Source: Gammaproteobacteria bacterium (GTDB lineage Bacteria > Pseudomonadota > Gammaproteobacteria > JAJPIJ01). Taken from it: a stretch of DNA of 64,000 nt. The stretch is taken from positions 26,207 through 90,206 of the forward strand of contig JAJVHZ010000061.1 in the NCBI GenBank assembly GCA_022072255.1, given 5' to 3'. The stretch's first letter is position 1. Each line of letters starts with the position of its first letter. Of the stretch, positions 1 through 15,473 are shown piece by piece. Both the position numbers and the translations under genes were made by a program. The notes under the pieces are model-generated. The model did not search any database, was not told the origin of the DNA, and saw nothing but the letters and a program-made list of their open reading frames with translations.

Positions 1-245
1 TCGCCGCCCAGGTCCTCACCCCGGTCGATATCGAGCGGCGGTTCGGCATGACCGGCGGACACTGGCACCACGGCGAACTGGCACTCGATCAGTTTCTCAT
101 GCTGAGACCGGCGCCCGGTGCGGCGCAATATGCGACGCCGCTGCCGGGGCTTTATCTCTGCGGCGCCGGCGCGCATCCGGGCGGCGGCGTCATGGGCAGC
201 GTCGGAAGGAACGCGGCCGGCGCGATCCTCAGCGGAGCAGCATGA
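1..245 (+). CDS. NAD(P)/FAD-dependent oxidoreductase (CrtI/phytoene-desaturase-like amine/CH-CH oxidoreductase), 3' end only; 5' end lies outside the window
   Basis: The frame is open from position 1. The C-terminal motif LYLCGAGAHPGGGVMGSVGRNAA is the conserved FAD-binding tail of CrtI-family oxidoreductases. The stop codon overlaps the next start (ATGA). Confidence 0.55.
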   Translation, partial: AAQVLTPVDIERRFGMTGGHWHHGELALDQFLMLRPAPGAAQYATPLPGLYLCGAGAHPGGGVMGSVGRNAAGAILSGAA

Positions 246-1435
246 CGATGAACACCGGGCACTTTCGCACACCGTTGCTGCACACGCCCTTTCATACCCG
301 CCTCGTCGCGGCCAGCACCTGCAACGAGTGGTACGCGTGGAAGGGTTACACGGCGCCGGCGCGGCTGACGGAGGTGGAATTCGAGTACTTCGCAATCCGC
401 AGCAGCGCCTCGATCTTCGACATCACGCCGCTGACGAAGTACCGCATCCGCGGCCCGGACTGCATTGCCTATTTCAACCGCCTGCTGACGCGCGACATCG
501 TCGCGCTGGCGGTGGGTCGGGTCGCGTACTGCCTGTGGTGCGACGACGCCGGGCGGCTCATCGACGACGGCACCCTGTTTCGTCTTGCCGAACAGGACTA
601 CCGGCTCTGCTCGCAGGAGCGGCATTACGACTGGTTGCGGACGTCGGCGCTCGGCTTCGACGTCAGCATCGAGGAGGAGACCGAACATGTCGCTGCGCTG
701 GCCCTGCAGGGCCCGACGTCCTGCGCCGTGCTGAAGGCTCTCGGCATCGGGGCCATCGAGATGCTCAAGCCTTTTCACCTGCTCAACGCCTCCCTGCACG
801 GACGCGATCTCATGATCTCCCGCACCGGTTTCACGGGCGACCTGGGCTATGAGCTGTGGATGCAGCCGGATACCGCCGGCGGCCTCTGGGATGCCGTGAT
901 GGAGGCGGGACGCAATTACGCCATCATGCCGATCGGCAGCGAGGCGCTCGACATGGCGCGTATCGAGGCCGGTTTCATCCAGGCCAACGTCGACTTCGTG
1001 CCGGCGGATCAGGCGGTGCGCCCGGGCCGAGGCCGATCCCCTTTCGAGCTGGGGCTGGCCGGTCATGTGGATTTCCGCAAGGCGAACTTCACCGGCCGGC
1101 GGGCATTGCTGGAGGAACAGCGCCGCGGGTCGCGTTACCAGCTGGTGAAACTGGACATCGACGGCAGCACGCCGGCGAAGGATTCCTTCGTCTACCTTCG
1201 CCGGCGCAAGGTCGTGGGACACGTGACCTCGGCCGTATGGTCGCCTACCGCCAAGACGAACATCGCATTGGCCTCGCTGCAGACTCCTTACGGCACGCAG
1301 GGCGATGACCTATGGGTGGAGATCTACTACAAGCGCGAACTGAAATGGGAACGGAAGATGGCTCGCTGCCGGATCGTGGCGGAGACGTTTTACGATCCGC
1401 CAAGACGGCGGCAGACGCCGGCGGCGAACTATTGA
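242..1435 (+). CDS. aminomethyltransferase-family protein (GcvT fold; DmdA-like tetrahydrofolate-dependent demethylase candidate)
   Basis: 397 aa with GcvT-family motifs (FDITPLTKYRIRG, RTGFTGDLGYELW, a C-terminal barrel). The start overlaps the upstream stop (ATGA). Confidence 0.85.
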   Translation: MTMNTGHFRTPLLHTPFHTRLVAASTCNEWYAWKGYTAPARLTEVEFEYFAIRSSASIFDITPLTKYRIRGPDCIAYFNRLLTRDIVALAVGRVAYCLWCDDAGRLIDDGTLFRLAEQDYRLCSQERHYDWLRTSALGFDVSIEEETEHVAALALQGPTSCAVLKALGIGAIEMLKPFHLLNASLHGRDLMISRTGFTGDLGYELWMQPDTAGGLWDAVMEAGRNYAIMPIGSEALDMARIEAGFIQANVDFVPADQAVRPGRGRSPFELGLAGHVDFRKANFTGRRALLEEQRRGSRYQLVKLDIDGSTPAKDSFVYLRRRKVVGHVTSAVWSPTAKTNIALASLQTPYGTQGDDLWVEIYYKRELKWERKMARCRIVAETFYDPPRRRQTPAANY

Positions 1436-3561
1436 AATCGCCGACGGCGCCCCCGGCGCGGCGTCTGGACGCGTTGTTGCGGCCCCGATCTATCGCAGTC
1501 GTCGGTGCCACGCCTCGCGAAGGTGCCGTCGGCAATCAGACCCTGCGCAACCTGATCCAGGGCGGCTACGGCGGGGCGCTGTACGCGATCAACCCGCGCC
1601 ACCGCGAGATCCACGGGGTTCCCTGTTTTGCCGGCTTCACCGATCTGCCGGGAAAGGTGGAGCACGCGATCTTCACGCTCGGCGACGCGCGCATCGAAGC
1701 AGCCCTCGAGGACGCCATACGTCATGGCGTGCGCGCCGTGACGCTGCTGTCGGCGCTGGTGCTGGACAACGACCGCGATCCGCCCCTGCGCGAACGCGTG
1801 CGGGCACGACTGCGGCGCGCCGGTATCGTCGCCTGCGGCGGCAACGGCATGGGCTTCTGCAATTTCACCGATCGCGTCTGGGCCTACGGTTTCGAGACGC
1901 GGCATCACGGCGACCGCGGCAACGTCGCGCTCATCAGCCACTCCGGGGCCGGCCTGTGCGGCATCCTCGACACCGATGAACGGTTGCGATTCAACCTGGC
2001 GATCTCTCCGGGGCAGGAACTGTCGGTCACGATGGCCGATTATCTCGATTTCGCGCTGGAGCAGCCCGAGACGCGTGTGGTCGGACTGTTCATGGAGACC
2101 GTCCGCGATCCCGACGCCATGATTCGCGCGTTCGAGAAGGCTCGCCGTCGATCGATCCCGATCGTGGCGATCAAGGTGGGGCGCACCGAGATGGCCGCGC
2201 GTCTTGCGGTATCGCACTCCGGGGCGATGGCGGGATGCGATGCGAGTCATGACGCGCTGTTCGATCGTTACGGGATCCAGCGCGTACGCGACATGGACGA
2301 GCTGGCGGCCGCGCTTGTCATGTTCGCACAACCGCACCCGGTCGCGGCCGGAGGTCTGGTAAGCGTTCACGACTCCGGCGGCGAACGACAGTTGCTCATC
2401 GACGTGGCCGCGGAGCTGAAGGTGCCGCTGGCCGAGCTCTCCGCCGACACGGCCGGGAAGCTCGCCGCGAGGCTCGATCCCGGGCTGCCGGCCGTCAATC
2501 CTCTCGACGCCTGGAGCGCCGGCGGCTCGGAGGCGCACAGGACGATCGGCGACTGTTTCGCGACCATGCTGAGTGACTCCGCGGCCGCGCTCGGCGCGGT
2601 GGTGCACGATCGCGTTGCGGACGGGCGCATCTATCCGGGTTACGCCGGCTATCTGCAGCAGGCGCACGCCGCCACCGGCAAACCGGTGTTTCTCGTCGCC
2701 AATCACCAGGGCACCGGCGCGGATCCGCTGGTGACGCAGCTCACCGAAAAGGGCTTCCCGGTGCTGGACGGGCTGGTGCCGTTCCTCGTCGGCGCGCGCT
2801 GCCTCATGGCCTACCGCGACTTCACGCAGCGCGTGCAGTCCCCGCCCCCGGAAGTCGATCCCGCGATCCTCGAGAAGTGGCGGCGGCGACTCGCCAGTGA
2901 AGAGCGGCCGGACGAGGCGACGAGCATGGAACTGCTGGCGGCGGCGGGTCTGCCGATGAACCGGGGCCTGCTGGCGGAGGATGAGTCGGCGGCGGTCGCG
3001 GCGGCGGCGGCGATCGGCTTCCCCGTCGTGGTGAAGACGGCGCGCGCCGATGTCGCGCACAAGACGGAGCTGCGCGGCGTGATCCTCGACGTCGCCGACG
3101 AGGCGGACTGCCGCGAAGCCTATCGCTCGCTCGCGCGGCGGCTGGGCGGGCGCGTGCTGGTTGCGCCGCTGATCCGCGATCCGGGGGTGGAGATGATCCT
3201 CGGGGTGGTCAATGACGCGCAGTTCGGGCCCCTGGTCATGCTCGGCTTCGGCGGCGTCCATGCCGAGGTCCTGCAGGACGTGCGCTTCGCGCTTCCGCCG
3301 TTCGGCGCGGCCACGGCCCGCCGCCTGCTCGACACCCTGCGCATGCGTGCGCTGCTCGATGGCAGCCGCGGCGCGCCGGCGCCGGACATCGACGCATATT
3401 GCCTGGCCGCCGCGCGCCTGTCGGTGATCGCGCATTCCCTGCGCGAGGTGATCGCCGAGATCGATCTCAACCCGGTCATCCTGAGCGCGGCGGGATGCAT
3501 CGCCGTCGACGCCCTGATCGTCACGCGCGCGCGGCCACACCACAGCGGGGCGCGCCCGTGA
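1432..3561 (+). CDS. ADP-forming acyl-CoA synthetase (acetate--CoA ligase family; CoA-binding domain plus ATP-grasp domain)
   Basis: The N-terminal CoA-binding Rossmann domain (SIAVVGATPREGAVGNQTLRNLIQGGYGG) and a C-terminal ATP-grasp domain are present. I chose the TTG at 1432 as start because it overlaps the GcvT stop; the longer ORF from 1312 would overlap the previous gene by 120 nt. Confidence 0.8.
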   Translation: MKSPTAPPARRLDALLRPRSIAVVGATPREGAVGNQTLRNLIQGGYGGALYAINPRHREIHGVPCFAGFTDLPGKVEHAIFTLGDARIEAALEDAIRHGVRAVTLLSALVLDNDRDPPLRERVRARLRRAGIVACGGNGMGFCNFTDRVWAYGFETRHHGDRGNVALISHSGAGLCGILDTDERLRFNLAISPGQELSVTMADYLDFALEQPETRVVGLFMETVRDPDAMIRAFEKARRRSIPIVAIKVGRTEMAARLAVSHSGAMAGCDASHDALFDRYGIQRVRDMDELAAALVMFAQPHPVAAGGLVSVHDSGGERQLLIDVAAELKVPLAELSADTAGKLAARLDPGLPAVNPLDAWSAGGSEAHRTIGDCFATMLSDSAAALGAVVHDRVADGRIYPGYAGYLQQAHAATGKPVFLVANHQGTGADPLVTQLTEKGFPVLDGLVPFLVGARCLMAYRDFTQRVQSPPPEVDPAILEKWRRRLASEERPDEATSMELLAAAGLPMNRGLLAEDESAAVAAAAAIGFPVVVKTARADVAHKTELRGVILDVADEADCREAYRSLARRLGGRVLVAPLIRDPGVEMILGVVNDAQFGPLVMLGFGGVHAEVLQDVRFALPPFGAATARRLLDTLRMRALLDGSRGAPAPDIDAYCLAAARLSVIAHSLREVIAEIDLNPVILSAAGCIAVDALIVTRARPHHSGARP

Positions 3562-5084
3562 ACCTCGCCGCCGCGCGAGCGCTCACCCGGGAGGACTGGC
3601 AGGCGATGACCGCGCGCCTGCGGCCCGAGACGCGTCTGCTGATCGATGGCGCCTTCGTGGAATCGATTGCCGGCGGCGAATTCGAGACCGTCAACCCGGC
3701 CGATGGCAGCGTCCTGGCGACGGTCTCCTGCGCCACCGGCGCCGACGTCGACCGCGCCGTCGCCTCGGCGCGGCGAGCGTTTCGATCCGGATGCTGGGCG
3801 CGCCTGCCGCCGCGTCGACGCATGGAGATCCTGTATCGGTGGTGCGAGCTGATAGCGGCGCAGGCCGCGGACCTCGCGCTGCTGGACACGCTCGACATGG
3901 GCAAGCCCATCGCGGACGCCTTGAACGTCGATCTGCCCGCCGTGATCGACACCGTCCGCTTCATGGCGGAATGCGTCGACAAGGTCGAGGGCGCGGTCAC
4001 CAGCACGGCGGCAGACGTCATGCATTTCGTGCTGCGCGAGCCGCTGGGCGTGGTGGCGGCCATCTCGCCGTGGAATTACCCGTTGCTGATGGCGGCCTGG
4101 AAGGTGGCGCCGGCGCTGGCGGCGGGCAATGCCGTGGTCCTGAAGCCCGCCGAACAGTCACCGCTCAGTGCCCTGCAACTGGCGCGGCTCTTCCTGGAGG
4201 CAGGCGGACCGCCCGGGGTCTTCAACGTCGTGAACGGACCGGGCGAGGTCACGGGCAGGGCGCTCGCACTGCATCCGGAGGTGGCCAAGGTGAGTTTCAC
4301 GGGCTCGACCGCCGTCGGCAAGCTGATGCTGCAGTACGCCGGCCTTTCGAACATGAAGCGCGTGGCGCTCGAGTGCGGCGGCAAGTCCCCGCAGATCTTC
4401 ATGGCCGACACCCCCGATCTCGATCGCGCCGTGACGGCGGCCTGCAACGGCATCTTCGCCAACATGGGCGAGGTCTGCAATGCCGGGTCGAGACTGCTCG
4501 TCGATCGCCGGATACATGAGCAGTTCGTGGACCGGTTCATCGCGGCGAGCGAGCACGCATACCGACCCGGCGACCCCCTGGATCCCGCCACCAGCATGGG
4601 GCCGCTCATCGATCGCGAGGCTCAGCGCCGCGTCCTGGGTTTCATCGAGACCGCTCGGCACCAGGGGGCGCGGCTGCGCTTCGGGGGCGACGTGCCGTCC
4701 GGGCTGGAGGGCGGCGCCTACGTCAACCCCACCCTGTTCACGGGCGTGAACAACGGCATGACGATCGCCCGCGAGGAGATCTTCGGGCCGGTCGCATGCG
4801 TCATCCCGTTCGAGGATCTCGACGCCGCGATCGGCATCGCCAACGACACGATATACGGACTCGCCGCGGGGATCTGGACGCGCGATCTCGCCGCCGCACA
4901 CCGGCTCATCCGCGAGATCGAGGCTGGCGTGCTGTGGGTGAACTGTTTCGACGAGGGCGACATGACCCAGCCCTTCGGCGGCTACAAGCAGTCAGGCAAC
5001 GCCAGGGACAAGTGTTTCGACAGCCTGCTCAGCTACACGCAGACGAAGTCGGCATGGCTTCGGATCGCGCAACCTTCGGGATGA
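3558..5084 (+). CDS. NAD(P)+-dependent aldehyde dehydrogenase
   Basis: ALDH-superfamily motifs are present (FTGSTAVGKLM, the catalytic EC GGKSP context, and the ELGGK-like region LECGGKSPQIF). I chose the GTG at 3558 (GTGA overlap with the upstream stop), which gives a protein of about 509 aa, typical for ALDHs. Confidence 0.9.
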   Translation: MNLAAARALTREDWQAMTARLRPETRLLIDGAFVESIAGGEFETVNPADGSVLATVSCATGADVDRAVASARRAFRSGCWARLPPRRRMEILYRWCELIAAQAADLALLDTLDMGKPIADALNVDLPAVIDTVRFMAECVDKVEGAVTSTAADVMHFVLREPLGVVAAISPWNYPLLMAAWKVAPALAAGNAVVLKPAEQSPLSALQLARLFLEAGGPPGVFNVVNGPGEVTGRALALHPEVAKVSFTGSTAVGKLMLQYAGLSNMKRVALECGGKSPQIFMADTPDLDRAVTAACNGIFANMGEVCNAGSRLLVDRRIHEQFVDRFIAASEHAYRPGDPLDPATSMGPLIDREAQRRVLGFIETARHQGARLRFGGDVPSGLEGGAYVNPTLFTGVNNGMTIAREEIFGPVACVIPFEDLDAAIGIANDTIYGLAAGIWTRDLAAAHRLIREIEAGVLWVNCFDEGDMTQPFGGYKQSGNARDKCFDSLLSYTQTKSAWLRIAQPSG

Positions 5085-5091
5085 GGATTCC

Positions 5092-5913
5092 ATGTCCACA
5101 CTGATCTACACGGTCGACGGTCCGGTCGCGCTGCTGACCCTGAATCGCCCGGAGAAGCTCAATGCCGTCAGCAACCGGATGGTGGCGGAACTGAACGCGG
5201 CGCTGGATCGCGCCGAGGCCGACGGCGCGGTCCGCGCCATCGTCCTCAACGGCGCCGGACGCGCCTTCTCCGCGGGATTCGACCTGGACACCGGGGAGGA
5301 AGGGTCCGGGCGCGACGTCGACGCCCTGCGGCGCATGCTGCGGCGGGATTTCGACGTGATCATGCGCTTCTGGCATTCGCCGAAACCGACGCTGGCGGCC
5401 GTGCACGGCCATTGCCTCGGCAGCGGAATGGAGATGGCGCTCGCCTGCGATCTGACGATCGCGGGTAGCGGCTGCCGGTTCGGCGCCCCGGAGGTGCAGT
5501 TCGGCAGCGGCATCATCACCATGATCATCCCCTGGCTCGTCGGGGCGAAGTTCGCCAAGGAATTGCTGATGGTCGGCGACGATCAGGTGTCCGCCGAACG
5601 TGCCGTGGCGATGGGTCTGATCAACCGCGTGGTCGCCGATGCGGCGGTGCTGGACACGACGCTGGCCATGGCGCGCGACATCGCCACCAATGGTCGCCTC
5701 GCGGTCGCGCTCACCAAGCAGGCGCTCAATCGCAGCTACGATATCATGGGAATGCGCCAGGCGATGGAGCAGGCGCTGGAACTGGACGTGATCGTCGAGG
5801 CGAGCGATACACCGGAGTCACGGGCGTTCTACGACATGGTGGCCAGCCAGGGCGCCAAGGCGGCGATTGCGTGGCGTCGGGCCCGCATCCTCAACTCCTC
5901 GCCGTCGACGTGA
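5092..5913 (+). CDS. enoyl-CoA hydratase/isomerase (crotonase superfamily)
   Basis: 273 aa with the crotonase fold signature (LNRPEKLNAV, AFSAGFDLD, GHCLGSGMEMALACD). GAGGA lies 7 nt upstream of the ATG. Confidence 0.9.
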   Translation: MSTLIYTVDGPVALLTLNRPEKLNAVSNRMVAELNAALDRAEADGAVRAIVLNGAGRAFSAGFDLDTGEEGSGRDVDALRRMLRRDFDVIMRFWHSPKPTLAAVHGHCLGSGMEMALACDLTIAGSGCRFGAPEVQFGSGIITMIIPWLVGAKFAKELLMVGDDQVSAERAVAMGLINRVVADAAVLDTTLAMARDIATNGRLAVALTKQALNRSYDIMGMRQAMEQALELDVIVEASDTPESRAFYDMVASQGAKAAIAWRRARILNSSPST

Positions 5914-5917
5914 ATCC

Positions 5918-7360
5918 ATGAGCACGAACAGGTCGGGGGGTAAAAGGAACGAGCCGGCACCACGGCGCGGCGGCCGGCGCGGTGCCGGTCCCACCGCGGC
6001 CCTCGATCGCCTGCTCGAACTTCACCCGCGGACCGAACTCATCGAGGTGCTGTTCGCCGACATCAACGGCATGCTGCGCGGCAAGCGCGTTGGCCGTGAG
6101 GACTTCCGGAAGGTCTTCGAGCCCGGCGTCAGCCTGCCCGGCGCGACCGCCCTGCTCGACAGCAAGGGCATGACCATCGATGCCATCAGCAATGGCAGCG
6201 CCGACGGCGATCCCGACATGATCTGCCGGCCCATCCCTGGCACCACCGCGGCGGTGCCCTGGGCGATGCGCCCCACGGCGCAGACGATGGTCAGCATGTA
6301 CGGCATCAGGGGCGAGCCCTATTTCGCCGACTCCCGGCACGTGCTGGAGCATGCGATGAGACCACTGGCAAAAATGGGGCTGAGGCCGGTGGTCGCCATC
6401 GAGCTGGAGTTCTACCTGCTCGACGGCGCTGCCGCCGAGACGCCGCGGCCGCGACTGGGTCGGATCCCGGGCACCTCCCTGCCTCAGGACGGTCCGCAGT
6501 ACAACAGCCTCGATGACCTTGCCGACCTCGACGCGTATTTCGCCGACGTGGATGCCGCCTGCCGGGAACAGGATATACCCGCGAGCGCGGCGCTGGCGGA
6601 ATTCGCGCCCGGCCAGTACGAGATCAATCTTCATCACGTCGATGATCCGCTGCTGGCCTGCGCGCATGCCCTGATGCTGAAGCGGGTGGTCAAGGGTGTG
6701 GCGCGCCGGCACGGGATGGGCGCATGCTTCATGGCGAAGCCGTTTGCCGAGAGCGCAGGATCCGGAATGCACGTGCACGTCAGCCTGCTCGATTCCAGGG
6801 GTCGTAACGTCTTTGCGGGCGCGGACGGCGACAGCGGCGGTCTGCCGATCTCCAGGCAACTGCGTCACGCCGTCGGGGGGCTGGTCGCAACCATGGACGA
6901 GGGCATGGCGATCTTCGCACCCAATGCGAATTCCTATCGCCGGATGCGACCTGCCTCGTTCGTCCCGCTGACCCCGAACTGGGGCATAAATCATCGCCGG
7001 CTTGCACTGCGCATACCGCTGGCGGCGGCCAGCGACATGCGGGTGGAGCATCGTGTCGCCGGCGCCGATGCCAATCCCTACCTGGTGATGGCGGCGGTAT
7101 TGGGCGGCATACATCATGGCCTCACGCGGCGTTGCGAGCCGGGGCCGATGGTGCCGGCGGGCGCCGTGATCGATGAGGTCATCACACTGCCCACGCGCTG
7201 GGAGCAGGCCCTCGGCGCATTTGAACGCGGTTCGGTGCTGCCGGGATACCTGGGCGAGGATTTCGCGCGCATCTATGCGATCTGCCGGCGCGGGGAGTGC
7301 GAGCGATTCCATGCCGAGATCGGCCGCCAGGACTACGAATGGTACCTGCGCAACGTTTAG
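5918..7360 (+). CDS. glutamine synthetase family protein (type III / PuuA-GmaS-like gamma-glutamyl-amine ligase)
   Basis: GS catalytic-domain motifs are present (ELEFYLLD, MHVHVSLLD, the NSYRRM-like region). The ATG at 5918 lies 5 nt after the crotonase stop; the upstream ORF extension would overlap the crotonase. Confidence 0.85.
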   Translation: MSTNRSGGKRNEPAPRRGGRRGAGPTAALDRLLELHPRTELIEVLFADINGMLRGKRVGREDFRKVFEPGVSLPGATALLDSKGMTIDAISNGSADGDPDMICRPIPGTTAAVPWAMRPTAQTMVSMYGIRGEPYFADSRHVLEHAMRPLAKMGLRPVVAIELEFYLLDGAAAETPRPRLGRIPGTSLPQDGPQYNSLDDLADLDAYFADVDAACREQDIPASAALAEFAPGQYEINLHHVDDPLLACAHALMLKRVVKGVARRHGMGACFMAKPFAESAGSGMHVHVSLLDSRGRNVFAGADGDSGGLPISRQLRHAVGGLVATMDEGMAIFAPNANSYRRMRPASFVPLTPNWGINHRRLALRIPLAAASDMRVEHRVAGADANPYLVMAAVLGGIHHGLTRRCEPGPMVPAGAVIDEVITLPTRWEQALGAFERGSVLPGYLGEDFARIYAICRRGECERFHAEIGRQDYEWYLRNV

Positions 7361-7399
7361 GATCGGGCCTCGACGCCACCATCATCCGGAGCGAATCGC

Positions 7400-8407
7400 A
7401 TGCGGCACGGTAATGCGGCCGACAACTTCCGCGCGCTCGTCGTCACCACGACGGAGAGCGGTCCCGGCCTCGAGGTGAGGCAGCTGGACCGGGACTTTCT
7501 CATGGAGGGCGACGTCACGATCGCAGTCGATCACTCCACGCTGAACTACAAGGACGGGCTGGCCCTCACCGGCCGGGCGCCGATCCTGCGCGTCTCGCCG
7601 ATGATCCCGGGAGTCGATCTCGCCGGGACCGTGGAGAGTTCGCAGCACCCGGACTACGCGCCCGGGGACAAGGTGGTGCTGAACGGCTGGGGTGTGGGTG
7701 AACGGCATCACGGCGGCTACGCGCAGCTCGCGCGCGTCAGGGGTGAGTGGCTGATCCCGCTGCCGGATCGCCTCTCGACGCGCCAGGCCATGGCCATCGG
7801 CACTGCGGGCTATACCGCCATGCTTTGCGTGACGGCCCTCGAGCGGGACGGCCTGCAGCCGGAATCCGGGCCGGTGCTGGTCACCGGCGCGGCCGGCGGT
7901 GTCGGCAGCCTCGCCGTCGCGCTGCTTGCGGGACGCGGGTACACGGTCACTGCCTCCACCGGCCGCATGGAGGAATCGCCGTATCTGCAGGCGCTGGGAG
8001 CCTCGGCCGTGATCGGGCGCGAGGAGCTTCAGACTCCCGTGAAGCCGCTGGCGAAGGAGCGCTGGGCCGGCGCCGTGGATTGCGTCGGCGGCACGACGTT
8101 GGCCAACGTGCTGTCGCAAACGCGTTATGGCGGCAGCGTGACGGCCTGCGGGCTGGCCGGCGGGATGGACCTGCCGGCGACGGTGGCGCCCTTCATACTC
8201 CGCGGCGTGCATCTGCTGGGTGTCGATTCCGTGATGGCGCCGCGCCAGGCTCGCCTGCGCGCGTGGCGGAGCCTGGCCGCGGAGATCGATCTCGGAAAGC
8301 TGGAATCGATGACGCGCACCATTGCGATCGACGAGTTGCCTGCGGCTGCCGCCGACATGCTCGCCGGCAAGGTTCGTGGCCGTATCGTGGTCGACGTCAA
8401 CGCCTGA
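7400..8407 (+). CDS. yhdH: YhdH/AcuI-family NADPH:acrylyl-CoA reductase (MDR-superfamily quinone-oxidoreductase fold)
   Basis: It aligns essentially end-to-end with E. coli YhdH (TLNYKDGLA, MIPGVDLAGTV, GWGVGE.HHGGYA, TGAAGGVGS, ACGLAGG). Confidence 0.9.
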   Translation: MRHGNAADNFRALVVTTTESGPGLEVRQLDRDFLMEGDVTIAVDHSTLNYKDGLALTGRAPILRVSPMIPGVDLAGTVESSQHPDYAPGDKVVLNGWGVGERHHGGYAQLARVRGEWLIPLPDRLSTRQAMAIGTAGYTAMLCVTALERDGLQPESGPVLVTGAAGGVGSLAVALLAGRGYTVTASTGRMEESPYLQALGASAVIGREELQTPVKPLAKERWAGAVDCVGGTTLANVLSQTRYGGSVTACGLAGGMDLPATVAPFILRGVHLLGVDSVMAPRQARLRAWRSLAAEIDLGKLESMTRTIAIDELPAAAADMLAGKVRGRIVVDVNA

Positions 8408-8431: not shown

Positions 8432-9691
8432 CTAGATGGCGCGCGTGGGCGGCTGCTCCGGGGGGGAGTCCACCGTCGATTGCAGCCCGCCGGCGGCTTC
8501 GGGCAGCACGCCGCGGGTAATCGGCATCATGCGCGCCACCACCAGCGTCACACCGGCGGCGAGCACGAGCAGCGCGATCGGGAAGGTCCGGGCGTCGAGG
8601 AAATCCATGCCGGCGCCGATCATCACCGCACCGAGGAATCCGCCGAGACACCATCCGGTCACGAGGCTGGCGCTGGCAACCGGCAGCTGCACGCGCCCGA
8701 CGATCTTGCCGGCGAGCGCCAGCGCCGCGCCATAGATGCTGAAGCAGGCGGGGCCGAAGAGGAAGGTGAGCGCGAGCAGGACTCCGGGCTGCAGCAGCTC
8801 GGCCCTCGTCAGTGCCAGCGAATACAGCACGATGTACACGGAAAGTATTCGCATCAGCCTCCTCTCCCCCATCCTGTCGGCGAGGTATCCCAGCGGCAGC
8901 AGCAACACCACCTGCCCCCACACGAACACCGTCAGCGCGAACAGCGAGAGGTGATCGGAATACCCTGCCGTGCGCAGGTAGGGTGTCAGCAGCGACCACG
9001 CGGAATTGTCGAGCGCACCGGTCAGGATCCCCAGAGCGATCACCCAGGGCAGCCGGCGGCCGATCTCGACGAATCGTCGCAGCGATACCGGGTGCTGGCC
9101 GACGCTGGCCTGCCGGTCATCCGGGAGGAAGACAGCCGCCGGGACCGTCGCCACGCACATCGCGGCGGCCGCCACCAGGAAGAATCCGGCCGGTTCCAGA
9201 TGGCCGGCATTGACGATGATCGGCCCGGTGGCGAAGCCCAGCGACTGCACGGAGAGGTACAGGGCATTGATGCGATTCCGCACGGCATGCTCAAAGGCGC
9301 CGTTGATCCACGTCTCCGCCGCCACGTAGAACAGCCCGAAAGCGGCGCCCTGCAAGGTCTCCGCGACCAGCCACAGCCAGAATGCGTCCGGGACGGCCAG
9401 CAACGCAATCGCCACGCCCGAGGCCAGCAGCGCGAGCACCGCGCACACGCGCGTGCCGAGACGCCGGAGCATCTCCGGATAGCGGTGTGAGAAGAAGATC
9501 AGCGACAGTGCCCACATGTTCAACAGCAGCGCCGTGCGTGTGGACGCCGCCTGAAACTCCGCGAGGGTGTTGATCAGCGTGGCGTACGACAGGCTCAGAC
9601 CCGTGTTCGCCACAAAGGCGGTGAACAGCACCCCCACCAGCATGGGAAGCCGGGCGTACCTGTCGGACTGTCTTTCGGTGTTCATGACCAT
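8432..9691 (-). CDS. MFS transporter
   Basis: 419 aa with about 12 predicted hydrophobic helices and MFS loop motifs. It lies downstream of, and on the same strand as, the two Rieske genes. Confidence 0.8.
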   Translation of the reverse strand: MVMNTERQSDRYARLPMLVGVLFTAFVANTGLSLSYATLINTLAEFQAASTRTALLLNMWALSLIFFSHRYPEMLRRLGTRVCAVLALLASGVAIALLAVPDAFWLWLVAETLQGAAFGLFYVAAETWINGAFEHAVRNRINALYLSVQSLGFATGPIIVNAGHLEPAGFFLVAAAAMCVATVPAAVFLPDDRQASVGQHPVSLRRFVEIGRRLPWVIALGILTGALDNSAWSLLTPYLRTAGYSDHLSLFALTVFVWGQVVLLLPLGYLADRMGERRLMRILSVYIVLYSLALTRAELLQPGVLLALTFLFGPACFSIYGAALALAGKIVGRVQLPVASASLVTGWCLGGFLGAVMIGAGMDFLDARTFPIALLVLAAGVTLVVARMMPITRGVLPEAAGGLQSTVDSPPEQPPTRAI

Positions 9692-9779
9692 GCTGGCTGT
9701 CGCCTCGTCGCGCCGGCCGCGGATCCCGCCGGGAAGCCAGGGCGGTCGTCCGGACTCGATTGCGGCCGACGCCGCGTCG

Positions 9780-10976
9780 TCAGGACATGCGTTCGTTGCA
9801 GGCCGCGACGGTGCCGCGCCGTGGCGCTTCCCTCAGCCGGCTGACCGGCAATGTCGCCCGCATCCTGGCCGCATAGGCGCGCAGGCAGATCTCGTTGCGT
9901 CCCAGGATGCCGTCCCTGAAGCTGCTCGAAGTCACGCCCGCCTGCACGCGCTCGATGAGGTCCTTGTCCTCGATGCCGACGCGCCGGTTGATCCGCAGGT
10001 TGAGCGCCCGGGCCGTCCTCATCCCGGCGCGCTCGTCCGGGAAACCATAGGCGGCGTCACGCATCAGCGTCTCGGTCGGCGACAGCGGCAGGAACTGCAG
10101 AAACTCGACCTGGTCCGGGTAGAGGTTGAACGTGAGATTCGGCCACAGCAGGTAATACAGCCACATCCGCCGGTACCTCTCCGGCAGATATTCGACCGCC
10201 GGCAGCACCTTCCTGTAGACGCGTACGCTCAGACCGGCGCGCGGCAGATCCTCCACCGACCCCGACAGGCGGTAGACCGATTCCGTCCTGACCTCCATGC
10301 CGTAGGTGTTCCCGACCAGGCTGTCGAGGCCGCGATGCGCCACCCGTACGTGCAGCGCGTCTATGTAGTTGTCGCTGGCATTCTTCCAGTTCGTCTGGCA
10401 ACGCCGGCCGGAAACGCCTCCGAGCGGTTGCAGGGACTCGATGCGGTAAAGGCGCATCTCGGGCGCCATCGGTGCGGCGCTCTCCGCCAGGTCCATGGGG
10501 CCGCTGGTGAACCGGATGAAGACGAAGCCCAGGAACACGTCGCAGTCGATCGGCACCAGTCCGTAATCACCGTCGTTGATCTGCGGGTATTGAGTCTTGA
10601 ACGGAATGCCCGCCAGCTTGCCCTCGAAGGTGTAACTCCAGGCATGATACGGACAGGTGATGTGGCGTTCGCAGCGGCCGCGATCGCCGTCCAGCAGTCG
10701 CGCCGCCCGATGACGGCACACATTGTGGAACGCGCGCAGCGCTCCTGCTTCGTCGCGAATTACGATCGCGGATTCGCCGAGCAGCGAGAACGTGTGGTAA
10801 TCGCCCGCTGCCGGGATGTCATTGCCGTGGCAGACCAGCTGCCAGGTGCGCATGAAGACCCGTTCGCGCTCGAGCTCGAAGAATTCCTGGTCGTAGTACG
10901 TCCACGCCGGCAGCGTACGGTCGCCCGAATCGTGCTCGGGGGAAGGTGCCGGTTCCACGGGGCGGACGAGGTCCAT
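9780..10976 (-). CDS. Rieske non-heme iron oxygenase alpha subunit (GbcA/Stc2/CntA-like monooxygenase/demethylase class)
   Basis: It has the Rieske motif CRHRAARL...CPYHAW and a mononuclear-iron motif D-x2-H-x4-H (DALHVRVAH). I trimmed the start to MDLVRP (the 50-aa upstream extension has no support). Confidence 0.85.
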   Translation of the reverse strand: MDLVRPVEPAPSPEHDSGDRTLPAWTYYDQEFFELERERVFMRTWQLVCHGNDIPAAGDYHTFSLLGESAIVIRDEAGALRAFHNVCRHRAARLLDGDRGRCERHITCPYHAWSYTFEGKLAGIPFKTQYPQINDGDYGLVPIDCDVFLGFVFIRFTSGPMDLAESAAPMAPEMRLYRIESLQPLGGVSGRRCQTNWKNASDNYIDALHVRVAHRGLDSLVGNTYGMEVRTESVYRLSGSVEDLPRAGLSVRVYRKVLPAVEYLPERYRRMWLYYLLWPNLTFNLYPDQVEFLQFLPLSPTETLMRDAAYGFPDERAGMRTARALNLRINRRVGIEDKDLIERVQAGVTSSSFRDGILGRNEICLRAYAARMRATLPVSRLREAPRRGTVAACNERMS

Positions 10977-11002
10977 GCGTACACCTTGCCGGCGCGTGCG
11001 CC

Positions 11003-12898: not shown

Positions 12899-12959
12899 GA
12901 TCACTCTCCTGTCCGAGGCCTGCATGATGATACAGGGACGTCGCGGTGTATTCAATGTC

Positions 12960-12977
12960 CATTCAATTCGTTGAATG
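12960..12977. promoter_or_regulatory. inverted repeat CATTCAA-N4-TTGAATG (candidate TetR-type operator) about 60 bp upstream of the fusion-gene start, flanked by further ATTCA half-sites at 12950-12957 and 12990-12996
   Basis: The arms are perfect 7-bp repeats read directly from the sequence. The position upstream of a TetR-domain gene fits the usual autoregulatory arrangement. Confidence 0.35.
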
Positions 12978-13215
12978 CCTGTTTAGAACATTCATCCAAC
13001 AGTTCGCGACCTCGTCGGGGCCCCTCGGATCCAGGGTACGGCCACAGGTTATCGGTTTGGCAGGTGCCGGGACCGGGGTGTGTGCCCGTGGCTGCGGGCA
13101 TCGCTGCGGGGGCGGAGAGGTTCGGGCGGCGGAGAGAACCTCAGAGATTCTCGAAGATAATATAAAACATAGCTTATTATCAATATAGTATCTGCATTAA
13201 CTAACGTATTTTCGA

Positions 13216-14034
13216 TTACCGGATCTCGGCCGACGCATCAGGTGTGGCGGCCGCAAACAGGCGGAAGAAGTTCTCGGTGGTCTGGCGGGCAAGCACCTCG
13301 ACGGGAACCCCGCGCAGGGCAGCGAGAAACTCCCCGACGTGCCGCACGTAGGCCGGCTGGTTCTCCTTGCCGCGATAGGGCACCGGCGCGAGGTAGGGGC
13401 AGTCCGTCTCGATGAGAAGTCGATCCGCCGGGACTGCGCGGGCGACTTCCTGGAGGGCGCCGGCATTTCGGAAGGTGACGATGCCCGAGAACGAGATGAG
13501 GAAGCCGAGCTCCATCGCCTGGACCGCGGTATCGAGATCCTCCGTGAAGCAGTGCATCACGCCACCCACCTCCGCCGCGCGCTCCTCGCGCAGTATGCGC
13601 AGGGTGTCCGCGCGGGCATCACGGGTGTGAATGATCAGCGGCTTGCCGCATTGCCGCGCGACGTCGATGTGACGGCGGAATCGATCGCGTTGCCAGCCGA
13701 GGTCCCCCCGGGAGCGAAAGTAGTCCAGGCCGGTCTCACCGACGGCGATCGCCCTGGGATGCCGGGCGTACCGGAGCAACTGCTCGCAGGAGGCGTCCAG
13801 ATCGGCCCCGGTATTCGGATGTACGCCCACGGAGGCAAACACGTTCCGGTGCGTCTCGGCGAGTCGTATCACGTCGGGGATCGACTCGATATCGACCGAC
13901 ACGCAGAGGAGGTGTCCCACGCCGTTCTCGGCGGCCTGGCGCAGCACGGATTGCACGCCCGCCTCCGTGCGACCGAGGCCGAGCATGGGGATGTGGCAGT
14001 GGGAGTCGACGAACAGCGCTGGCGTCGCGTTCAT
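13216..14034 (-). CDS. tatD: TatD-family metal-dependent deoxyribonuclease/hydrolase
   Basis: TatD motifs are present (FVDSHCH, HPNTG, AIGETGLDY, IIHTRDA, MHCF, ISFSGIVTF, ETDCPYLAP). I trimmed the start to MNATPALFVDSHCH. Confidence 0.85.
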   Translation of the reverse strand: MNATPALFVDSHCHIPMLGLGRTEAGVQSVLRQAAENGVGHLLCVSVDIESIPDVIRLAETHRNVFASVGVHPNTGADLDASCEQLLRYARHPRAIAVGETGLDYFRSRGDLGWQRDRFRRHIDVARQCGKPLIIHTRDARADTLRILREERAAEVGGVMHCFTEDLDTAVQAMELGFLISFSGIVTFRNAGALQEVARAVPADRLLIETDCPYLAPVPYRGKENQPAYVRHVGEFLAALRGVPVEVLARQTTENFFRLFAAATPDASAEIR

Positions 14035-14117
14035 GCGGTTGCGTGCGGAGACCGGAAACTGCGCGGCGTGCGCCCGGGTCTCTTGGCCACGGCGGCACGC
14101 CTTACGACGACCCGCCG

Positions 14118-15466: not shown

Positions 15467-15473
15467 CGTAATC

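What the first reader, a model, noticed from the sequence alone, without database searches (positions are those of the whole stretch)
1..8407. Seven-gene translationally coupled operon combining a THF-type demethylase, a gamma-glutamyl ligase, an ADP-forming CoA ligase, an ALDH, a crotonase and an acrylyl-CoA reductase
The FAD oxidoreductase, GcvT-like, ADP-forming acyl-CoA synthetase, ALDH, crotonase, GS-like and YhdH/AcuI genes are packed head to tail. The first three junctions are start/stop overlaps (ATGA at 242, TTGA at 1432, GTGA at 3558) and the others are spaced 5 to 40 nt. This signals a single co-translated pathway.

Each part has a known context. GcvT-like plus AcuI is the dmdA-acuI pairing of DMSP demethylation in roseobacters. 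GS-like plus amine oxidase plus ALDH is the Puu-type gamma-glutamylation route. Crotonase plus acrylyl-CoA reductase plus CoA ligase parallels carnitine (CaiCD/A) and acrylate metabolism. I do not know of any described pathway that unites all of them.

A plausible substrate is a methylated onium C3 acid (DMSP, beta-alanine betaine or a related amine). It would be demethylated, CoA-activated, beta-eliminated to acrylyl-CoA and reduced to propionyl-CoA.
Basis: partly seen in the sequence, partly recalled or inferred. Interest (0 to 1): 0.75.

Follow-up and report, generated by a model that had tools for sequence, protein, structure and literature searches.

The report
Uncharacterised methylated-amine to propionyl-CoA catabolic operon
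The seven genes are real and form the downstream part of a larger, widely conserved but uncharacterised gene cluster in uncultured soil and freshwater Gammaproteobacteria that most likely breaks down a methylated polyamine-like amine through a CoA-bound C3 acid to acrylyl-CoA and propionyl-CoA.

Summary
The gene families, order and tight packing are confirmed. The window cuts the operon: 87%-identical relatives have an aminotransferase and two CrtI-family flavoproteins upstream. A BetI-like TetR, an acyl-CoA dehydrogenase and a PotF-like binding protein lie divergently. An MFS transporter and two CntA/GbcA-like Rieske oxygenases lie convergently.

The core (aminotransferase, FAD1, FAD2, GcvT-like, ADP-forming CoA ligase, ALDH, crotonase, GS-like) recurs in the same order in about 40 of 47-52 evaluable species-level loci. 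All are uncultured Gammaproteobacteria. AcuI is a rare add-on (4 of 80 loci).

Only AcuI passes a curated equivalog cut-off. The GcvT-like protein is neither DmdA nor GcvT; it is closest to the THF domain of TMAO demethylase. The GS-like protein is not GlnA; it is closest to a gamma-glutamyl-amine ligase. The CoA ligase's best solved relative is the DMSP lyase DddX, but only marginally (27.6% identity).

The flavoprotein-GcvT-Rieske-transporter module also occurs, without the CoA module, in cultured Alphaproteobacteria.

No characterised pathway was found. Best reading: N-demethylation and deamination of a cationic amine, oxidation to a 3-substituted propionate, CoA activation, elimination to acrylyl-CoA, then reduction. 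The substrate is unknown.

The parts
1..245 (+). 3' end of 'FAD2', the second of two adjacent CrtI/CrtO-family FAD oxidoreductases (the gene is cut by the window edge)
   Evidence: NCBIfam CrtO/CrtI-family C-terminal match. 96% identical to residues 443-512 of the 524-aa protein L007:7201-8775. Pfam Amino_oxidase and NAD_binding_8 on the full-length relatives.
242..1435 (+). Stand-alone GcvT-family (THF-binding aminomethyltransferase-like) protein; the conserved start is probably the ATG at 248
   Evidence: Pfam GCV_T + GCV_T_C. Best NCBIfam and PDB match is the C-terminal domain of TMAO demethylase. Below the cut-offs for GcvT and DmdA. Start-codon alignment.
1432..3561 (+). ADP-forming acyl-CoA synthetase (ACD superfamily, fused alpha+beta); the start is TTG 1432 or TTG 1474/1477
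   Evidence: Pfam CoA_binding_2, Succ_CoA_lig and ATP-grasp_5. Best PDB hits: DddX 7cm9 (242 bits), then ADP-forming 4-hydroxybutyrate- and 3-hydroxypropionate-CoA ligases (235 and 232 bits). His262 and Trp361 align with DddX His292 and Trp391.
3558..5084 (+). NAD(P)-dependent aldehyde dehydrogenase (PuuC/BADH-like)
   Evidence: Pfam Aldedh, 550 bits. NCBIfam PuuC 537 bits and BADH 499 bits, both below their cut-offs.
5092..5913 (+). Crotonase-fold enoyl-CoA hydratase with both catalytic glutamates
   Evidence: Pfam ECH_1. Motifs GSGMEMALACD and GAPEVQFG. Best PDB hit 4k29, function unknown; 3-hydroxypropionyl-CoA dehydratase 5zai is among the next hits.
5918..7360 (+). Glutamine-synthetase-like ATP-dependent gamma-glutamyl ligase
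   Evidence: Pfam Gln-synt_C. Below the cut-offs for GlnA, type III GS and gamma-glutamylputrescine synthetase. Best PDB hit 8wwu, which is NpaA1, a gamma-glutamyl-arylamine ligase.
7400..8407 (+). AcuI/YhdH acrylyl-CoA reductase (NADPH)
   Evidence: NCBIfam equivalog acrylyl_AcuI, 496.2 bits against a cut-off of 440. This is the only protein of the set that passes an equivalog cut-off.
8432..9691 (-). MFS transporter, convergent with the operon; conserved only in the window's close relatives
   Evidence: Pfam MFS_1. Synteny in L001, L007 and L009.
9780..10976 (-). Rieske non-haem-iron oxygenase alpha subunit of the CntA/GbcA type
   Evidence: Pfam Rieske + Ring_hydroxyl_A. CxH...CxxH and HxxxxH motifs are present. 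For the 87%-clade orthologue in L007, the best PDB hit is carnitine monooxygenase CntA and the best NCBIfam hit is GbcA.
11003..12898 (-). Single ORF that fuses a BetI-type TetR regulator (N-terminal) to a Rieske oxygenase alpha subunit
   Evidence: Pfam TetR_N, TetR_C_6, Rieske and Ring_hydroxyl_A in one protein. Metal-ligand motifs are intact. Called as one 631-aa gene in relatives. Present in 23 of 52 downstream-complete loci.

Best explanation
Window 1-8407 is the downstream two-thirds of a conserved catabolic island of about 12-15 genes for a cationic, N-methylated, polyamine-like amine. The carbon skeleton ends as a C3 acyl-CoA.

Proposed flow:
1. Uptake by a PotF-type ABC system. In this clade an MFS transporter is also present.
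2. Removal of N-methyl groups. CntA/GbcA-like Rieske oxygenases would release formaldehyde. A three-protein unit made of two CrtI-family flavoproteins plus the stand-alone GcvT-like protein would pass the C1 unit to tetrahydrofolate. This unit would be a split analogue of heterotetrameric sarcosine oxidase or dimethylglycine dehydrogenase.
3. The HemL/GntE-like omega-aminotransferase converts the primary amine end to an aldehyde.
4. The aldehyde dehydrogenase makes a 3-substituted (amino or onium) propionate.
5. The ADP-forming CoA ligase makes its CoA thioester, as DddX does with DMSP.
6. The beta-substituent leaves, either on the ligase or through the two-glutamate crotonase, giving acrylyl-CoA or 3-hydroxypropionyl-CoA.
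7. AcuI reduces the toxic acrylyl-CoA to propionyl-CoA. In relatives without AcuI, the divergently encoded short-chain acyl-CoA dehydrogenase and the crotonase would handle the thioester in a DmdC/DmdD-like way.
8. The GS-like ligase gamma-glutamylates an amine, either the substrate's free amine or the (methyl)amine that is released.

Shown here: gene families, synteny, AcuI identity, conservation of catalytic motifs.
Inferred: every substrate and the order of the steps.
For: Families and motifs:
- Domain and family assignments.
- AcuI equivalog passed.
- DddX is the best solved relative of the ligase. The phosphohistidine and the cation-pi Trp are conserved (H262, W361, invariant in alignment A1). 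The 4-hydroxybutyrate-CoA ligase has Val at the Trp position (residue roles from PMC8163506).
- The crotonase keeps both catalytic Glu.

Synteny:
- Canonical order in 71 of 71 loci. Core genes are present in 38-42 of 47-52 evaluable loci.
- AcuI was recruited next to the ligase in at least three different arrangements: the window clade, L033 and L086.

Methylated-amine signals:
- The Rieske proteins are closest to CntA/GbcA.
- BetI-type TetR domains.
- The GcvT-like protein is closest to the THF domain of TMAO demethylase and to SoxA.
- PurU plus FrmA/FrmB-like genes follow the cluster in L054.

Amine and polyamine signals:
- The binding protein scores 393 bits against PotF with the putrescine-contact residues conserved.
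- A PotA-like ATPase lies next to it in at least 31 loci.
- The aminotransferase resembles GntE/HemL.
- The GS-like protein is closest to a gamma-glutamyl-amine ligase.

Independent link to beta-elimination:
- In Fuscovulum ytuae the orthologous aminotransferase-FAD1-FAD2-GcvT-Rieske-Rieske-ABC operon continues into a PF16867 DMSP-lyase-family cupin.
Against: - No experiment or literature bears on any member of the cluster.
- The ligase scores almost the same against non-onium ligases (235 and 232 bits against 242). It is only 27.6% identical to DddX. DddX Glu432 aligns with Tyr401.
- AcuI is absent from most related loci, so acrylyl-CoA may be a side product or specific to this clade.
- The PurU/Frm adjacency and the cupin adjacency are each seen in one genome only.
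- The flavoproteins are closer to C-C desaturases (CrtI, 71 bits) than to known amine oxidases.
- No hydrolase for a gamma-glutamyl amide appeared in the gene-called relatives examined, and no reductase partner for the Rieske proteins was seen in the stretches examined.
- No abundant natural di-cationic N-methylated C3 amine is known that would explain such a wide distribution in soil and freshwater.
Confidence: 0.4

Rival explanations
1. Catabolism of an N-methylated amino alcohol, such as homocholine or 3-aminopropanol. After demethylation, the transaminase gives 3-hydroxypropanal and the ALDH gives 3-hydroxypropionate. The ADP-forming ligase then acts as a 3-hydroxypropionate-CoA ligase, the crotonase as a 3-hydroxypropionyl-CoA dehydratase, and AcuI as the acrylyl-CoA reductase. 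This is the canonical reductive route from 3-HP to propionyl-CoA.
For: Each of the last three steps has an exact enzymatic precedent among the hits. These are the ADP-forming 3-hydroxypropionate-CoA ligase 9y43 (232 bits; NCBIfam HydPropCoALig 257 bits), the 3-hydroxypropionyl-CoA dehydratase 5zai among the crotonase hits, and the AcuI equivalog. PuuC-type ALDHs are known to oxidise 3-hydroxypropanal (from my own knowledge, not tested here). The Rieske, GcvT and BetI signals fit a choline homologue.
Against: The PotF-like binding protein keeps acidic residues at both ends of the pocket, which suggests a di-cation. The conserved GS-like ligase and the acyl-CoA dehydrogenase have no role in this route. 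The Trp shared with DddX is not explained. Homocholine is not known to be abundant in nature.
Confidence: 0.17
2. Ordinary (unmethylated) polyamine or diamine catabolism. This would be a Puu/Pau-like route (GS-like as PuuA, flavoproteins as PuuB analogues, ALDH as PuuC, transaminase as PatA/SpuC) joined to CoA-dependent processing of the resulting omega-amino acid or dicarboxylate. Examples are beta-alanine to beta-alanyl-CoA to acrylyl-CoA, or glutarate to glutaryl-CoA to crotonyl-CoA. The GcvT-like protein would have a side role.
For: The PotF-like binding protein keeps the putrescine-contact residues, and PotA-like ATPases lie next to it. The best NCBIfam names are PuuC for the ALDH and gamma-glutamylputrescine synthetase for the GS-like protein, although both are below cut-off. 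Acetylpolyamine amidohydrolase genes lie near related modules in two Alphaproteobacteria. The ligase is paired with an acyl-CoA dehydrogenase in three lineages.
Against: The GcvT-like protein is one of the most constant members (42 of 47 loci). It always follows the two flavoproteins, also in Alphaproteobacteria that lack the CoA genes. A THF-binding C1 acceptor has no role with unmethylated polyamines. The CntA/GbcA-like Rieske oxygenases and BetI-type regulators point to methylated or quaternary amines. No PuuD-like hydrolase was seen in the gene-called relatives examined.
Confidence: 0.18
3. DMSP or another sulfonium compound (for example DMSP-amine or S-methylmethionine) is the substrate. 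The ligase would be a true DddX-type DMSP lyase, or a DmdB substitute. The GcvT-like protein would be a DmdA-type demethylase, the acyl-CoA dehydrogenase and crotonase would act as DmdC and DmdD, the ALDH would oxidise DMSP-aldehyde or acetaldehyde, and AcuI would detoxify acrylyl-CoA.
For: The cluster has the same enzyme types as DmdA, B, C and D plus AcuI. DddX is the top solved hit, and His292 and Trp391 are conserved. A DddX-like enzyme only 23% identical to DddX still cleaves DMSP, so low identity does not exclude the activity (PMC13543886). A DMSP-lyase-family cupin sits in the Fuscovulum operon.
Against: The DmdA model scores 136 bits against a cut-off of 410. Identity to DddX is 27.6%, below the >30% criterion of the DddX paper, and Glu432 is not aligned. 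The transporter is of the PotF type, not the BCCT or betaine type. The record titles of carriers point mostly to soil, lake and mud MAGs, where DMSP is scarce. The Rieske oxygenases and the GS-like ligase have no role with a sulfonium.
Confidence: 0.1
4. This is not one pathway. It is a mosaic of two independent modules that happen to be adjacent: an amine/demethylation module (aminotransferase, FAD1, FAD2, GcvT-like, Rieske, ABC transporter, TetR) and an acyl-CoA module (ligase, ALDH, crotonase, GS-like, acyl-CoA dehydrogenase, AcuI).
For: The first module occurs without the second in Shinella, Rhizobium, Parasedimentitalea and Fuscovulum. ALDH, crotonase and AcuI are variably present. Seven of the 80 ligase-matched loci show no other cluster gene.
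Against: The two modules are fused in one strand with the same order in 71 of 71 loci. The gaps at the junction are small or overlapping. The acyl-CoA dehydrogenase sits on the far side, next to the regulator and the transporter, so the modules interlock. No promoter-like site lies between them.
Confidence: 0.12

Closest known systems
DddX / DddX-like ATP-dependent DMSP lyases with AcuI or AcuH (Psychrobacter sp. D2; Neptunicoccus cionae)
   Same: Same superfamily and domain order as the window's CoA ligase, and the best solved hit. The phosphohistidine and the Trp proposed to hold the onium group are conserved. An acrylyl-CoA reductase and a crotonase lie downstream, as proposed for DddX products.
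   Different: 27.6% identity. The proposed base Glu432 is not conserved in the alignment. The gene neighbourhood differs (no BCCT transporter, DddB or DddC). The activity is untested.
DMSP demethylation pathway DmdA-DmdB-DmdC-DmdD and the roseobacter dmdA-acuI operon
   Same: Same succession of enzyme types: a THF-dependent GcvT-family protein, a CoA ligase, an acyl-CoA dehydrogenase, a crotonase, with AcuI attached.
   Different: The GcvT-like protein fails the DmdA model (136 bits against 410). The ligase is ADP-forming rather than AMP-forming. The dehydrogenase is a generic short-chain type of 388 aa.
Puu/Pau gamma-glutamylation pathways of putrescine and polyamines (E. coli, P. aeruginosa)
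   Same: A PotF-type binding protein, a GS-like ligase, a PuuC-like ALDH and a class III aminotransferase are all present.
   Different: All proteins are below the equivalog cut-offs. The oxidases are CrtI-type, not DAO-type PuuB/PauB. No PuuD-type hydrolase was seen in the gene-called relatives examined. The CoA, THF and Rieske components are additional.
Stepwise demethylation of betaines: GbcAB / CntAB / Stc2 Rieske oxygenases, DgcAB / StcD flavoproteins, and sarcosine oxidase or dimethylglycine dehydrogenase with a THF-binding GcvT-like domain
   Same: Rieske oxygenases closest to CntA/GbcA, BetI-type regulators and a GcvT-like THF protein next to flavoproteins. Alphaproteobacterial versions add an OYE-like NADH:flavin oxidoreductase.
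   Different: The flavoproteins belong to the CrtI family and the GcvT-like part is a separate protein. One Rieske subunit is fused to a TetR. The transporter is polyamine-type, not betaine-type.
Routes to propionyl-CoA through acrylyl-CoA: beta-alanyl-CoA ammonia-lyase and acryloyl-CoA reductase of Clostridium propionicum, and 3-hydroxypropionate-CoA ligase / dehydratase / AcuI of Nitrosopumilus and Rhodobacter
   Same: CoA activation of a 3-substituted propionate, elimination to acrylyl-CoA, then reduction. ADP-forming 3-HP-CoA ligase and 3-HP-CoA dehydratase are among the close solved hits.
   Different: No homologue of the clostridial lyase or CoA transferase was seen among the cluster genes (not searched for specifically). 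The context here is amine and demethylation genes rather than carbon fixation or fermentation. The comparison with C. propionicum rests on my own knowledge.

Membership tests
AcuI/YhdH acrylyl-CoA reductase | Score above the curated equivalog cut-off of NCBIfam NF051456 over the full length | tested here: met
   496.2 bits against a cut-off of 440; residues 10-334 match model positions 1-325 of 325.
AcuI/YhdH acrylyl-CoA reductase | NADPH-dependent reduction of acrylyl-CoA to propionyl-CoA | not testable with these tools
   Needs an enzyme assay.
DddX ATP-dependent DMSP lyase | ACD architecture (CoA-binding, succinyl-CoA-ligase-like flavodoxin and ATP-grasp domains) with the phosphohistidine (His292) | tested here: met
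   Pfam domains. H262 lies in AVSHSGA and aligns with His292 in ANAHSGA.
DddX ATP-dependent DMSP lyase | Trp391 and Phe435, the cation-pi residues for the sulfonium | tested here: met
   W361 (NPLDAW) aligns with Trp391 and is invariant in A1. Y404 aligns with Phe435 in a lower-confidence stretch.
DddX ATP-dependent DMSP lyase | Glu432, the proposed catalytic base | tested here: not met
   It aligns with Tyr401. The alignment there contains gaps. A functional DddX-like enzyme also lacks this Glu, so the feature may not be essential.
DddX ATP-dependent DMSP lyase | More than 30% identity and more than 70% coverage to DddX (criterion of PMC8163506) | tested here: not met
   27.6% identity over 667 aligned positions; coverage about 96%.
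DddX ATP-dependent DMSP lyase | DMS and acryloyl-CoA formed from DMSP + ATP + CoA | not testable with these tools
   Needs an enzyme assay.
DmdA DMSP demethylase | Score above the equivalog cut-off of NCBIfam NF009133 | tested here: not met
   136.5 bits against a cut-off of 410.
Glycine-cleavage T protein GcvT | Score above the TIGR00528 / PRK00389 cut-offs and association with gcvH/gcvP | tested here: not met
   156.8 bits against 235.85 and 205.5 against 300. No glycine-cleavage H or P protein appears among the neighbours.
Housekeeping glutamine synthetase GlnA / type III GS (GmaS) / gamma-glutamylputrescine synthetase PuuA | Score above the respective equivalog cut-offs | tested here: not met
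   GlnA 172 against 429; type III 189.8 against 469.6; GGputSyn 201.2 against 650. The catalytic Gln-synt_C domain is present.
Puu/Pau gamma-glutamylation pathway | The complete set PuuA, PuuB (DAO-type oxidase), PuuC and PuuD (gamma-glutamyl-GABA hydrolase) | tested here: not met
   GS-like and PuuC-like proteins are present. The flavoproteins are CrtI-type. No PuuD-like gene appears in the gene and Pfam tables of the four relatives read; the remaining loci were not screened for one.
Canonical crotonase (enoyl-CoA hydratase) | The two catalytic glutamates (rat ECH Glu144 and Glu164 motifs) | tested here: met
   GSGMEMALACD and FGAPEVQFG. ECH_1 scores 162.8 bits. The motif positions are assigned from my memory of the rat enzyme.
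CntA/GbcA-type quaternary-amine Rieske oxygenases | Rieske CxH...CxxH and mononuclear-iron His motifs, and closest similarity to CntA/GbcA | tested here: inconclusive
   The motifs are present in both window proteins. For the L007 orthologue, CntA is the best PDB hit at 116 bits and GbcA the best NCBIfam hit at 122 bits against a cut-off of 670. The proteins are related but far below equivalog level.

The most novel reading that the evidence does not exclude
The cluster encodes an undescribed pathway for N-methylated aminopropyl-type polyamines or their onium acids. Candidates include N-methylated 1,3-diaminopropane units such as those of diatom long-chain polyamines, or beta-alanine betaine and its amine precursor.

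It would contain two new enzyme solutions. The first is a three-component THF-linked N-demethylase built from two CrtI-family flavoproteins plus a free-standing GcvT-like protein. The second is a DddX-type, CoA- and ATP-dependent beta-elimination that releases a (methyl)amine instead of dimethyl sulfide. The released amine would be trapped by a GS-like ligase, and the acrylyl-CoA reduced by AcuI.
Probability: 0.22. Interest if true: 0.8.

Novelty: new variant of a known kind. Interest (0 to 1): 0.6.

Why it matters
If the reading is right, a widespread group of uncultured soil, lake and sediment Gammaproteobacteria carries a dedicated route for a methylated amine whose identity and turnover are not on the map of nitrogen and C1 cycling.

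It would extend DddX-type 'activate, then eliminate' chemistry from marine DMSP to nitrogen compounds on land.

It would also define a new kind of THF-linked demethylase made from carotenoid-desaturase-like flavoproteins.

The demethylation module has 64-68% identical counterparts of its first flavoprotein in cultured strains: Shinella zoogloeoides ATCC 19623, Rhizobium sp. SL42, Parasedimentitalea marina W43 and Fuscovulum ytuae YMD61. The question can therefore be tested directly.

Tried and rejected
- **Literature.** Six full-text searches for the gene combination, beta-alanine betaine or homocholine catabolism, and 3-HP/AcuI with aminopropanol found nothing relevant.
- **Orthologue of the validated DddX-like enzyme.** I tested whether a roseobacter plasmid ligase (Leisingera, 37% identical) is that orthologue, using the published residue numbers His251, Thr351, Trp354 and Trp392. 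The positions do not line up consistently, so no link is claimed.
- **PurU, FrmA and FrmB next to the cluster.** They are found only in L054 among the loci examined, so this is a hint and not a rule.
- **Contexts of more distant FAD1 homologues (37-40% identity).** The Agrobacterium and Sphingobium contexts were unrelated and uninformative.
- **Solved relatives of the acyl-CoA dehydrogenase.** The scores are flat (CarC 164, SCAD 155, MCAD 148 bits), so no substrate inference is possible.
- **Names in the large protein collection.** Names for the ligase and the GcvT-like protein are generic.
- **Rejected readings.**
  - Genuine glycine cleavage, and housekeeping GlnA (cut-offs failed).
  - Carotenoid metabolism for the CrtI-like proteins, because of the context.
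  - A carnitine Cai-type pathway: no CaiB/CaiC-type genes were noted among the cluster genes (not searched for specifically), and the ligase is of a different family.

Full report
**1. Observation**

- the 3' end of a CrtI/CrtO-like flavoprotein (to 245);
- a GcvT-family protein (242 or 248 to 1435);
- a fused ADP-forming acyl-CoA synthetase, ACD (1432-3561);
- an aldehyde dehydrogenase (3558-5084);
- a crotonase (5092-5913);
- a GS-like ligase (5918-7360);
- an AcuI/YhdH reductase (7400-8407).

The tetranucleotides ATGA (242), TTGA (1432) and GTGA (3558) are present. The later gaps are 7, 4 and 39 nt.

Two junctions need a caveat.
- The ATG conserved in relatives is at 248, so the first junction is either a 4-nt overlap or a 2-nt gap.
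- The ACD start is TTG 1432 in the call made on this sequence (P0001), but 15 codons later in 87%-identical relatives.

The ACD/ALDH overlap is conserved. A consensus scan finds no promoter-like site inside the unit and one terminator-like match where 5.2 are expected by chance.

**2. The operon is larger than the window shows**

Exact and near-exact copies occur only on short metagenomic contigs and one MAG. Relatives with 86-88% identical proteins on contigs of 122-155 kb show the whole locus.
- Divergent side: a BetI-like TetR, a short-chain-type acyl-CoA dehydrogenase (ACAD) and a PotF-like binding protein.
- + strand: a HemL/GntE-like class III aminotransferase, two CrtI-family flavoproteins (FAD1, 538 aa; FAD2, 524 aa), the GcvT-like protein, ACD, ALDH, crotonase, GS-like and AcuI.
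- Convergent side: an MFS transporter, a Rieske oxygenase alpha subunit, and a second Rieske alpha subunit fused to a BetI-type TetR.

The window's first 245 bases are the end of FAD2 (96% identity). The convergent genes lie in the window at 8432-12898. From 13.2 kb onwards the window is housekeeping: tatD, holB, mltG, pabC, fabF, fabD, plsX, rne, prfC, and further on era, lepA, ligA and smc. The island therefore ends there.

**3. Recurrence**

An alignment of ACD homologues (A1) retrieved 80 loci from one-genome-per-species GTDB contigs. All are MAGs, mostly Steroidobacteraceae, Lysobacterales or 'Gammaproteobacteria', with 52-61% ACD identity apart from the two close relatives. Judging by their record titles, most come from soil, lakes and mud.

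tblastn with 15 cluster proteins gave these results.
- Among 47 loci with at least 9 kb upstream: GcvT-like 42, FAD1 41, ACAD 41, FAD2 40, binding protein 39, TetR 39, aminotransferase 38.
- Among 52 loci with at least 7 kb downstream: GS-like 41, ALDH 38, crotonase 38, TetR-Rieske 23, AcuI 3.
- Gene order is canonical in 71 of 71 loci that carry at least three of the genes.
- A PotA-like ATPase flanks the binding protein in at least 31 loci.
- Good AcuI homologues occur in only four loci, but in three arrangements: after GS-like (window clade), directly after ACD (L033), and between ACD and the crotonase (L086).
- Minimal versions (L011, L035, L051, L054, L085, L091) keep FAD1, FAD2, GcvT-like, ACD and GS-like, and in most of them also the ACAD, binding protein and TetR. 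They lack ALDH and the crotonase.

**4. What the proteins are**

Only AcuI passes a curated equivalog cut-off (496 against 440).

*GcvT-like protein.* It is below the cut-offs for GcvT (157 against 236; 205 against 300) and DmdA (136 against 410). Its best matches are the C-terminal THF domain of TMAO demethylase (271 bits in NCBIfam; 183 bits for 9q5a) and SoxA.

*GS-like protein.* It fails the GlnA, type III and gamma-glutamylputrescine-synthetase models. Its best solved relative is 8wwu, which is NpaA1, a broad-spectrum gamma-glutamyl-amine ligase.

*ACD.* Its best solved relative is the DMSP lyase DddX (7cm9, 242 bits). The ADP-forming 4-hydroxybutyrate- and 3-hydroxypropionate-CoA ligases are almost equal (235 and 232 bits), and identity to DddX is 27.6%. 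Of the residues the DddX paper names:
- His292 aligns with H262.
- Trp391 aligns with W361. This Trp is invariant in A1, whereas the 4-HB ligase has Val at that position.
- Phe435 aligns with Y404.
- The proposed base Glu432 aligns with Y401.

A 2026 paper shows that an ACD only about 23% identical to DddX, and lacking these residues, still cleaves DMSP. Sequence alone therefore cannot settle the activity.

*Other proteins.*
- The crotonase keeps both catalytic glutamates. Its best solved relative (4k29) has no assigned function.
- The ACAD is generic.
- The flavoproteins match CrtI (71 bits) rather than any solved amine oxidase, though Pfam Amino_oxidase hits are recorded.
- The Rieske protein's best solved relative is carnitine monooxygenase CntA, over its full length. 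Its best NCBIfam name is glycine betaine monooxygenase GbcA.
- The binding protein scores 393 bits against E. coli PotF. It keeps W37, D39, Y40, W244, D247, D278 and Y314, with E185D, S38T and F276W. The list of contact residues comes from my memory of the PotF structural papers.

**5. Two modules, one of them in cultured bacteria**

Searching annotated plasmids and chromids with FAD1 found homologues 64-69% identical across seven records. In the four I opened (Shinella zoogloeoides ATCC 19623, Rhizobium sp. SL42, Parasedimentitalea marina W43, Fuscovulum ytuae YMD61) they sit in operons of the form TetR | FAD1-FAD2-'aminomethyltransferase family protein'. The Shinella sp. PSBB067 and Ensifer adhaerens records were not examined.

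These operons also carry Rieske alpha subunits, a polyamine-type ABC transporter and an aminotransferase. In two cases there is an OYE-like NADH:flavin oxidoreductase as well.

Identity to the gammaproteobacterial proteins is as follows:

| Protein | Identity |
|---|---|
| FAD1 | 64-68% |
| GcvT-like | 50-55% |
| FAD2 | 37-44% |
| TetR | 31-47% |
| Rieske | 38-39% |
| Aminotransferase (Fuscovulum) | 64% |
| Binding protein (Fuscovulum) | 48% |

None of the stretches examined around these operons (12 kb on each side) carries the ACD, GS-like, ALDH, crotonase or ACAD genes.

In Fuscovulum the operon runs on into a protein of the cupin DMSP-lyase family (PF16867, 65.8 bits) and an amidohydrolase.

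Separately, ACD-ACAD pairs recur on a Paracoccaceae plasmid and in Sulfitobacter. A Shinella sumterensis plasmid has crotonase-ACD-hydroxyacyl-CoA dehydrogenase-CrtI-like flavoprotein-GcvT in one operon.

In one gammaproteobacterial MAG (L054) the cluster is followed by PurU and by FrmB- and FrmA-like genes. This is a hallmark of C1 release, but it is seen only there.

**6. Interpretation**

*Amine-processing front end.* The constant trio FAD1-FAD2-GcvT-like is always associated with CntA/GbcA-like Rieske oxygenases, BetI-type regulators, a PotF-type transporter and an omega-aminotransferase. This is best read as a module that removes N-methyl groups and then the amino group. The Rieske enzymes would release formaldehyde, and the flavoprotein/GcvT unit would produce methylene-THF. 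This parallels the GbcA -> DgcAB -> sarcosine oxidase logic for betaines. That reading is an inference from family relationships.

*Back end in the Gammaproteobacteria.* The added ALDH, ACD, crotonase, ACAD and GS-like genes would take the resulting aldehyde to an acid and a CoA thioester.

*Chain length.* Three observations point to a 3-substituted propionyl-CoA that loses its substituent to give acrylyl-CoA:
- the equivalog-level AcuI in this window and its repeated recruitment next to the ACD;
- the Trp shared with DddX;
- the independent coupling of the same front end to a cupin of the DMSP-lyase family in Fuscovulum.

I keep it with one change: the imported compound is more likely a di-cationic amine than the acid itself.

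*GS-like ligase.* It most plausibly gamma-glutamylates an amine. Whether that amine is the substrate or the leaving group cannot be decided. No amide hydrolase was seen in the gene-called relatives examined.

*Rivals.* There are four:
- an amino-alcohol route through 3-hydroxypropionate;
- plain polyamine catabolism;
- sulfonium (DMSP-type) catabolism;
- a mosaic of two unrelated modules.

Each is set out with its evidence in the rival explanations section.

**7. Novelty and verdict**

Every enzyme family here is known, and the general logic (demethylate, deaminate, oxidise, activate, eliminate, reduce) has precedents. The combination has none that I could find. The cluster is common in uncultured Gammaproteobacteria, and two of its parts would be new enzyme solutions if confirmed: the CrtI-type flavoprotein/GcvT demethylase, and an ACD acting on an amino or onium acid.

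I rate it a new variant of a known kind, of moderate to good interest. The substrate is unknown, and the mechanism is held at about 0.4 confidence.

Noticed in passing
window 11003-12898 (- strand): A single ORF fuses a BetI-type TetR regulator (TetR_N + TetR_C_6) to a complete Rieske oxygenase alpha subunit with intact [2Fe-2S] and iron-ligand motifs. It is called as one 631-aa gene in relatives and is present in 23 of 52 related loci. A regulator-enzyme fusion of this kind is unusual and may sense the pathway substrate.
   Followed up: partly
L104 (Fuscovulum ytuae plasmid NZ_CP124537.1) 10641-25098: A cultured alphaproteobacterium has the orthologous aminotransferase-FAD1-FAD2-GcvT-Rieske-Rieske-polyamine-ABC operon. 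It is followed directly by a PF16867 DMSP-lyase-family cupin, an Amidohydro_3 protein and a methyltransferase.
   Followed up: partly
L054 13583-17870 (Pseudomonadales MAG): In this relative the GS-like gene is followed by a Rieske oxygenase and PurU, and then by FrmB-like and FrmA-like formaldehyde-detoxification genes. This adjacency was found in no other locus examined.
   Followed up: yes
window 242-251: In the window, FAD2 stops two codons earlier than in relatives, at the TGA at 243-245. This creates a second, upstream ATGA. The start codon conserved across relatives is the ATG at 248.
   Followed up: yes
L007 1-2106 and window 8432-9691: In the window's clade the PotF-like binding protein is not followed by ABC permease or ATPase genes. 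Instead it is followed by a FadB-like 808-aa hydratase/3-hydroxyacyl-CoA dehydrogenase, and an MFS transporter is present next to AcuI. More distant relatives have the full PotABC-type transporter.
   Followed up: no
window 13216-31385: The catabolic island abuts a classical housekeeping block: tatD, holB, mltG, pabC, fabF, fabD, plsX, a peptidase S49, RNase E and prfC. This suggests insertion of the island beside a conserved locus.
   Followed up: partly
window 61395-63362 (- strand): A 655-aa ORF combines an isocitrate/isopropylmalate dehydrogenase domain with a C-terminal CBS domain, which is an uncommon architecture.
   Followed up: no
window 55806-57827 (- strand): An AMP-forming acetyl/propionyl-CoA synthetase (ACAS_N + AMP-binding) lies 47 kb from the ADP-forming ligase. 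The genome therefore has a conventional short-chain acyl-CoA synthetase as well.
   Followed up: no
L065, L016, L075, L086 (record titles): Contigs carrying the gammaproteobacterial-type cluster at 54-57% identity are labelled Nitrosopumilus sp., Planctomycetota or Enterobacteriaceae MAGs. This is probably mis-binning or misclassification rather than true hosts.
   Followed up: no
L097 (Shinella sumterensis plasmid) 11087-17807: A different operon joins a crotonase, an ACD (34% identical), a 3-hydroxyacyl-CoA dehydrogenase, one CrtI-like flavoprotein (40%) and a GcvT (30%), next to a polyamine-type ABC transporter and BKACE genes. This is a second, independent association of ACD with a flavoprotein/GcvT pair.
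   Followed up: no
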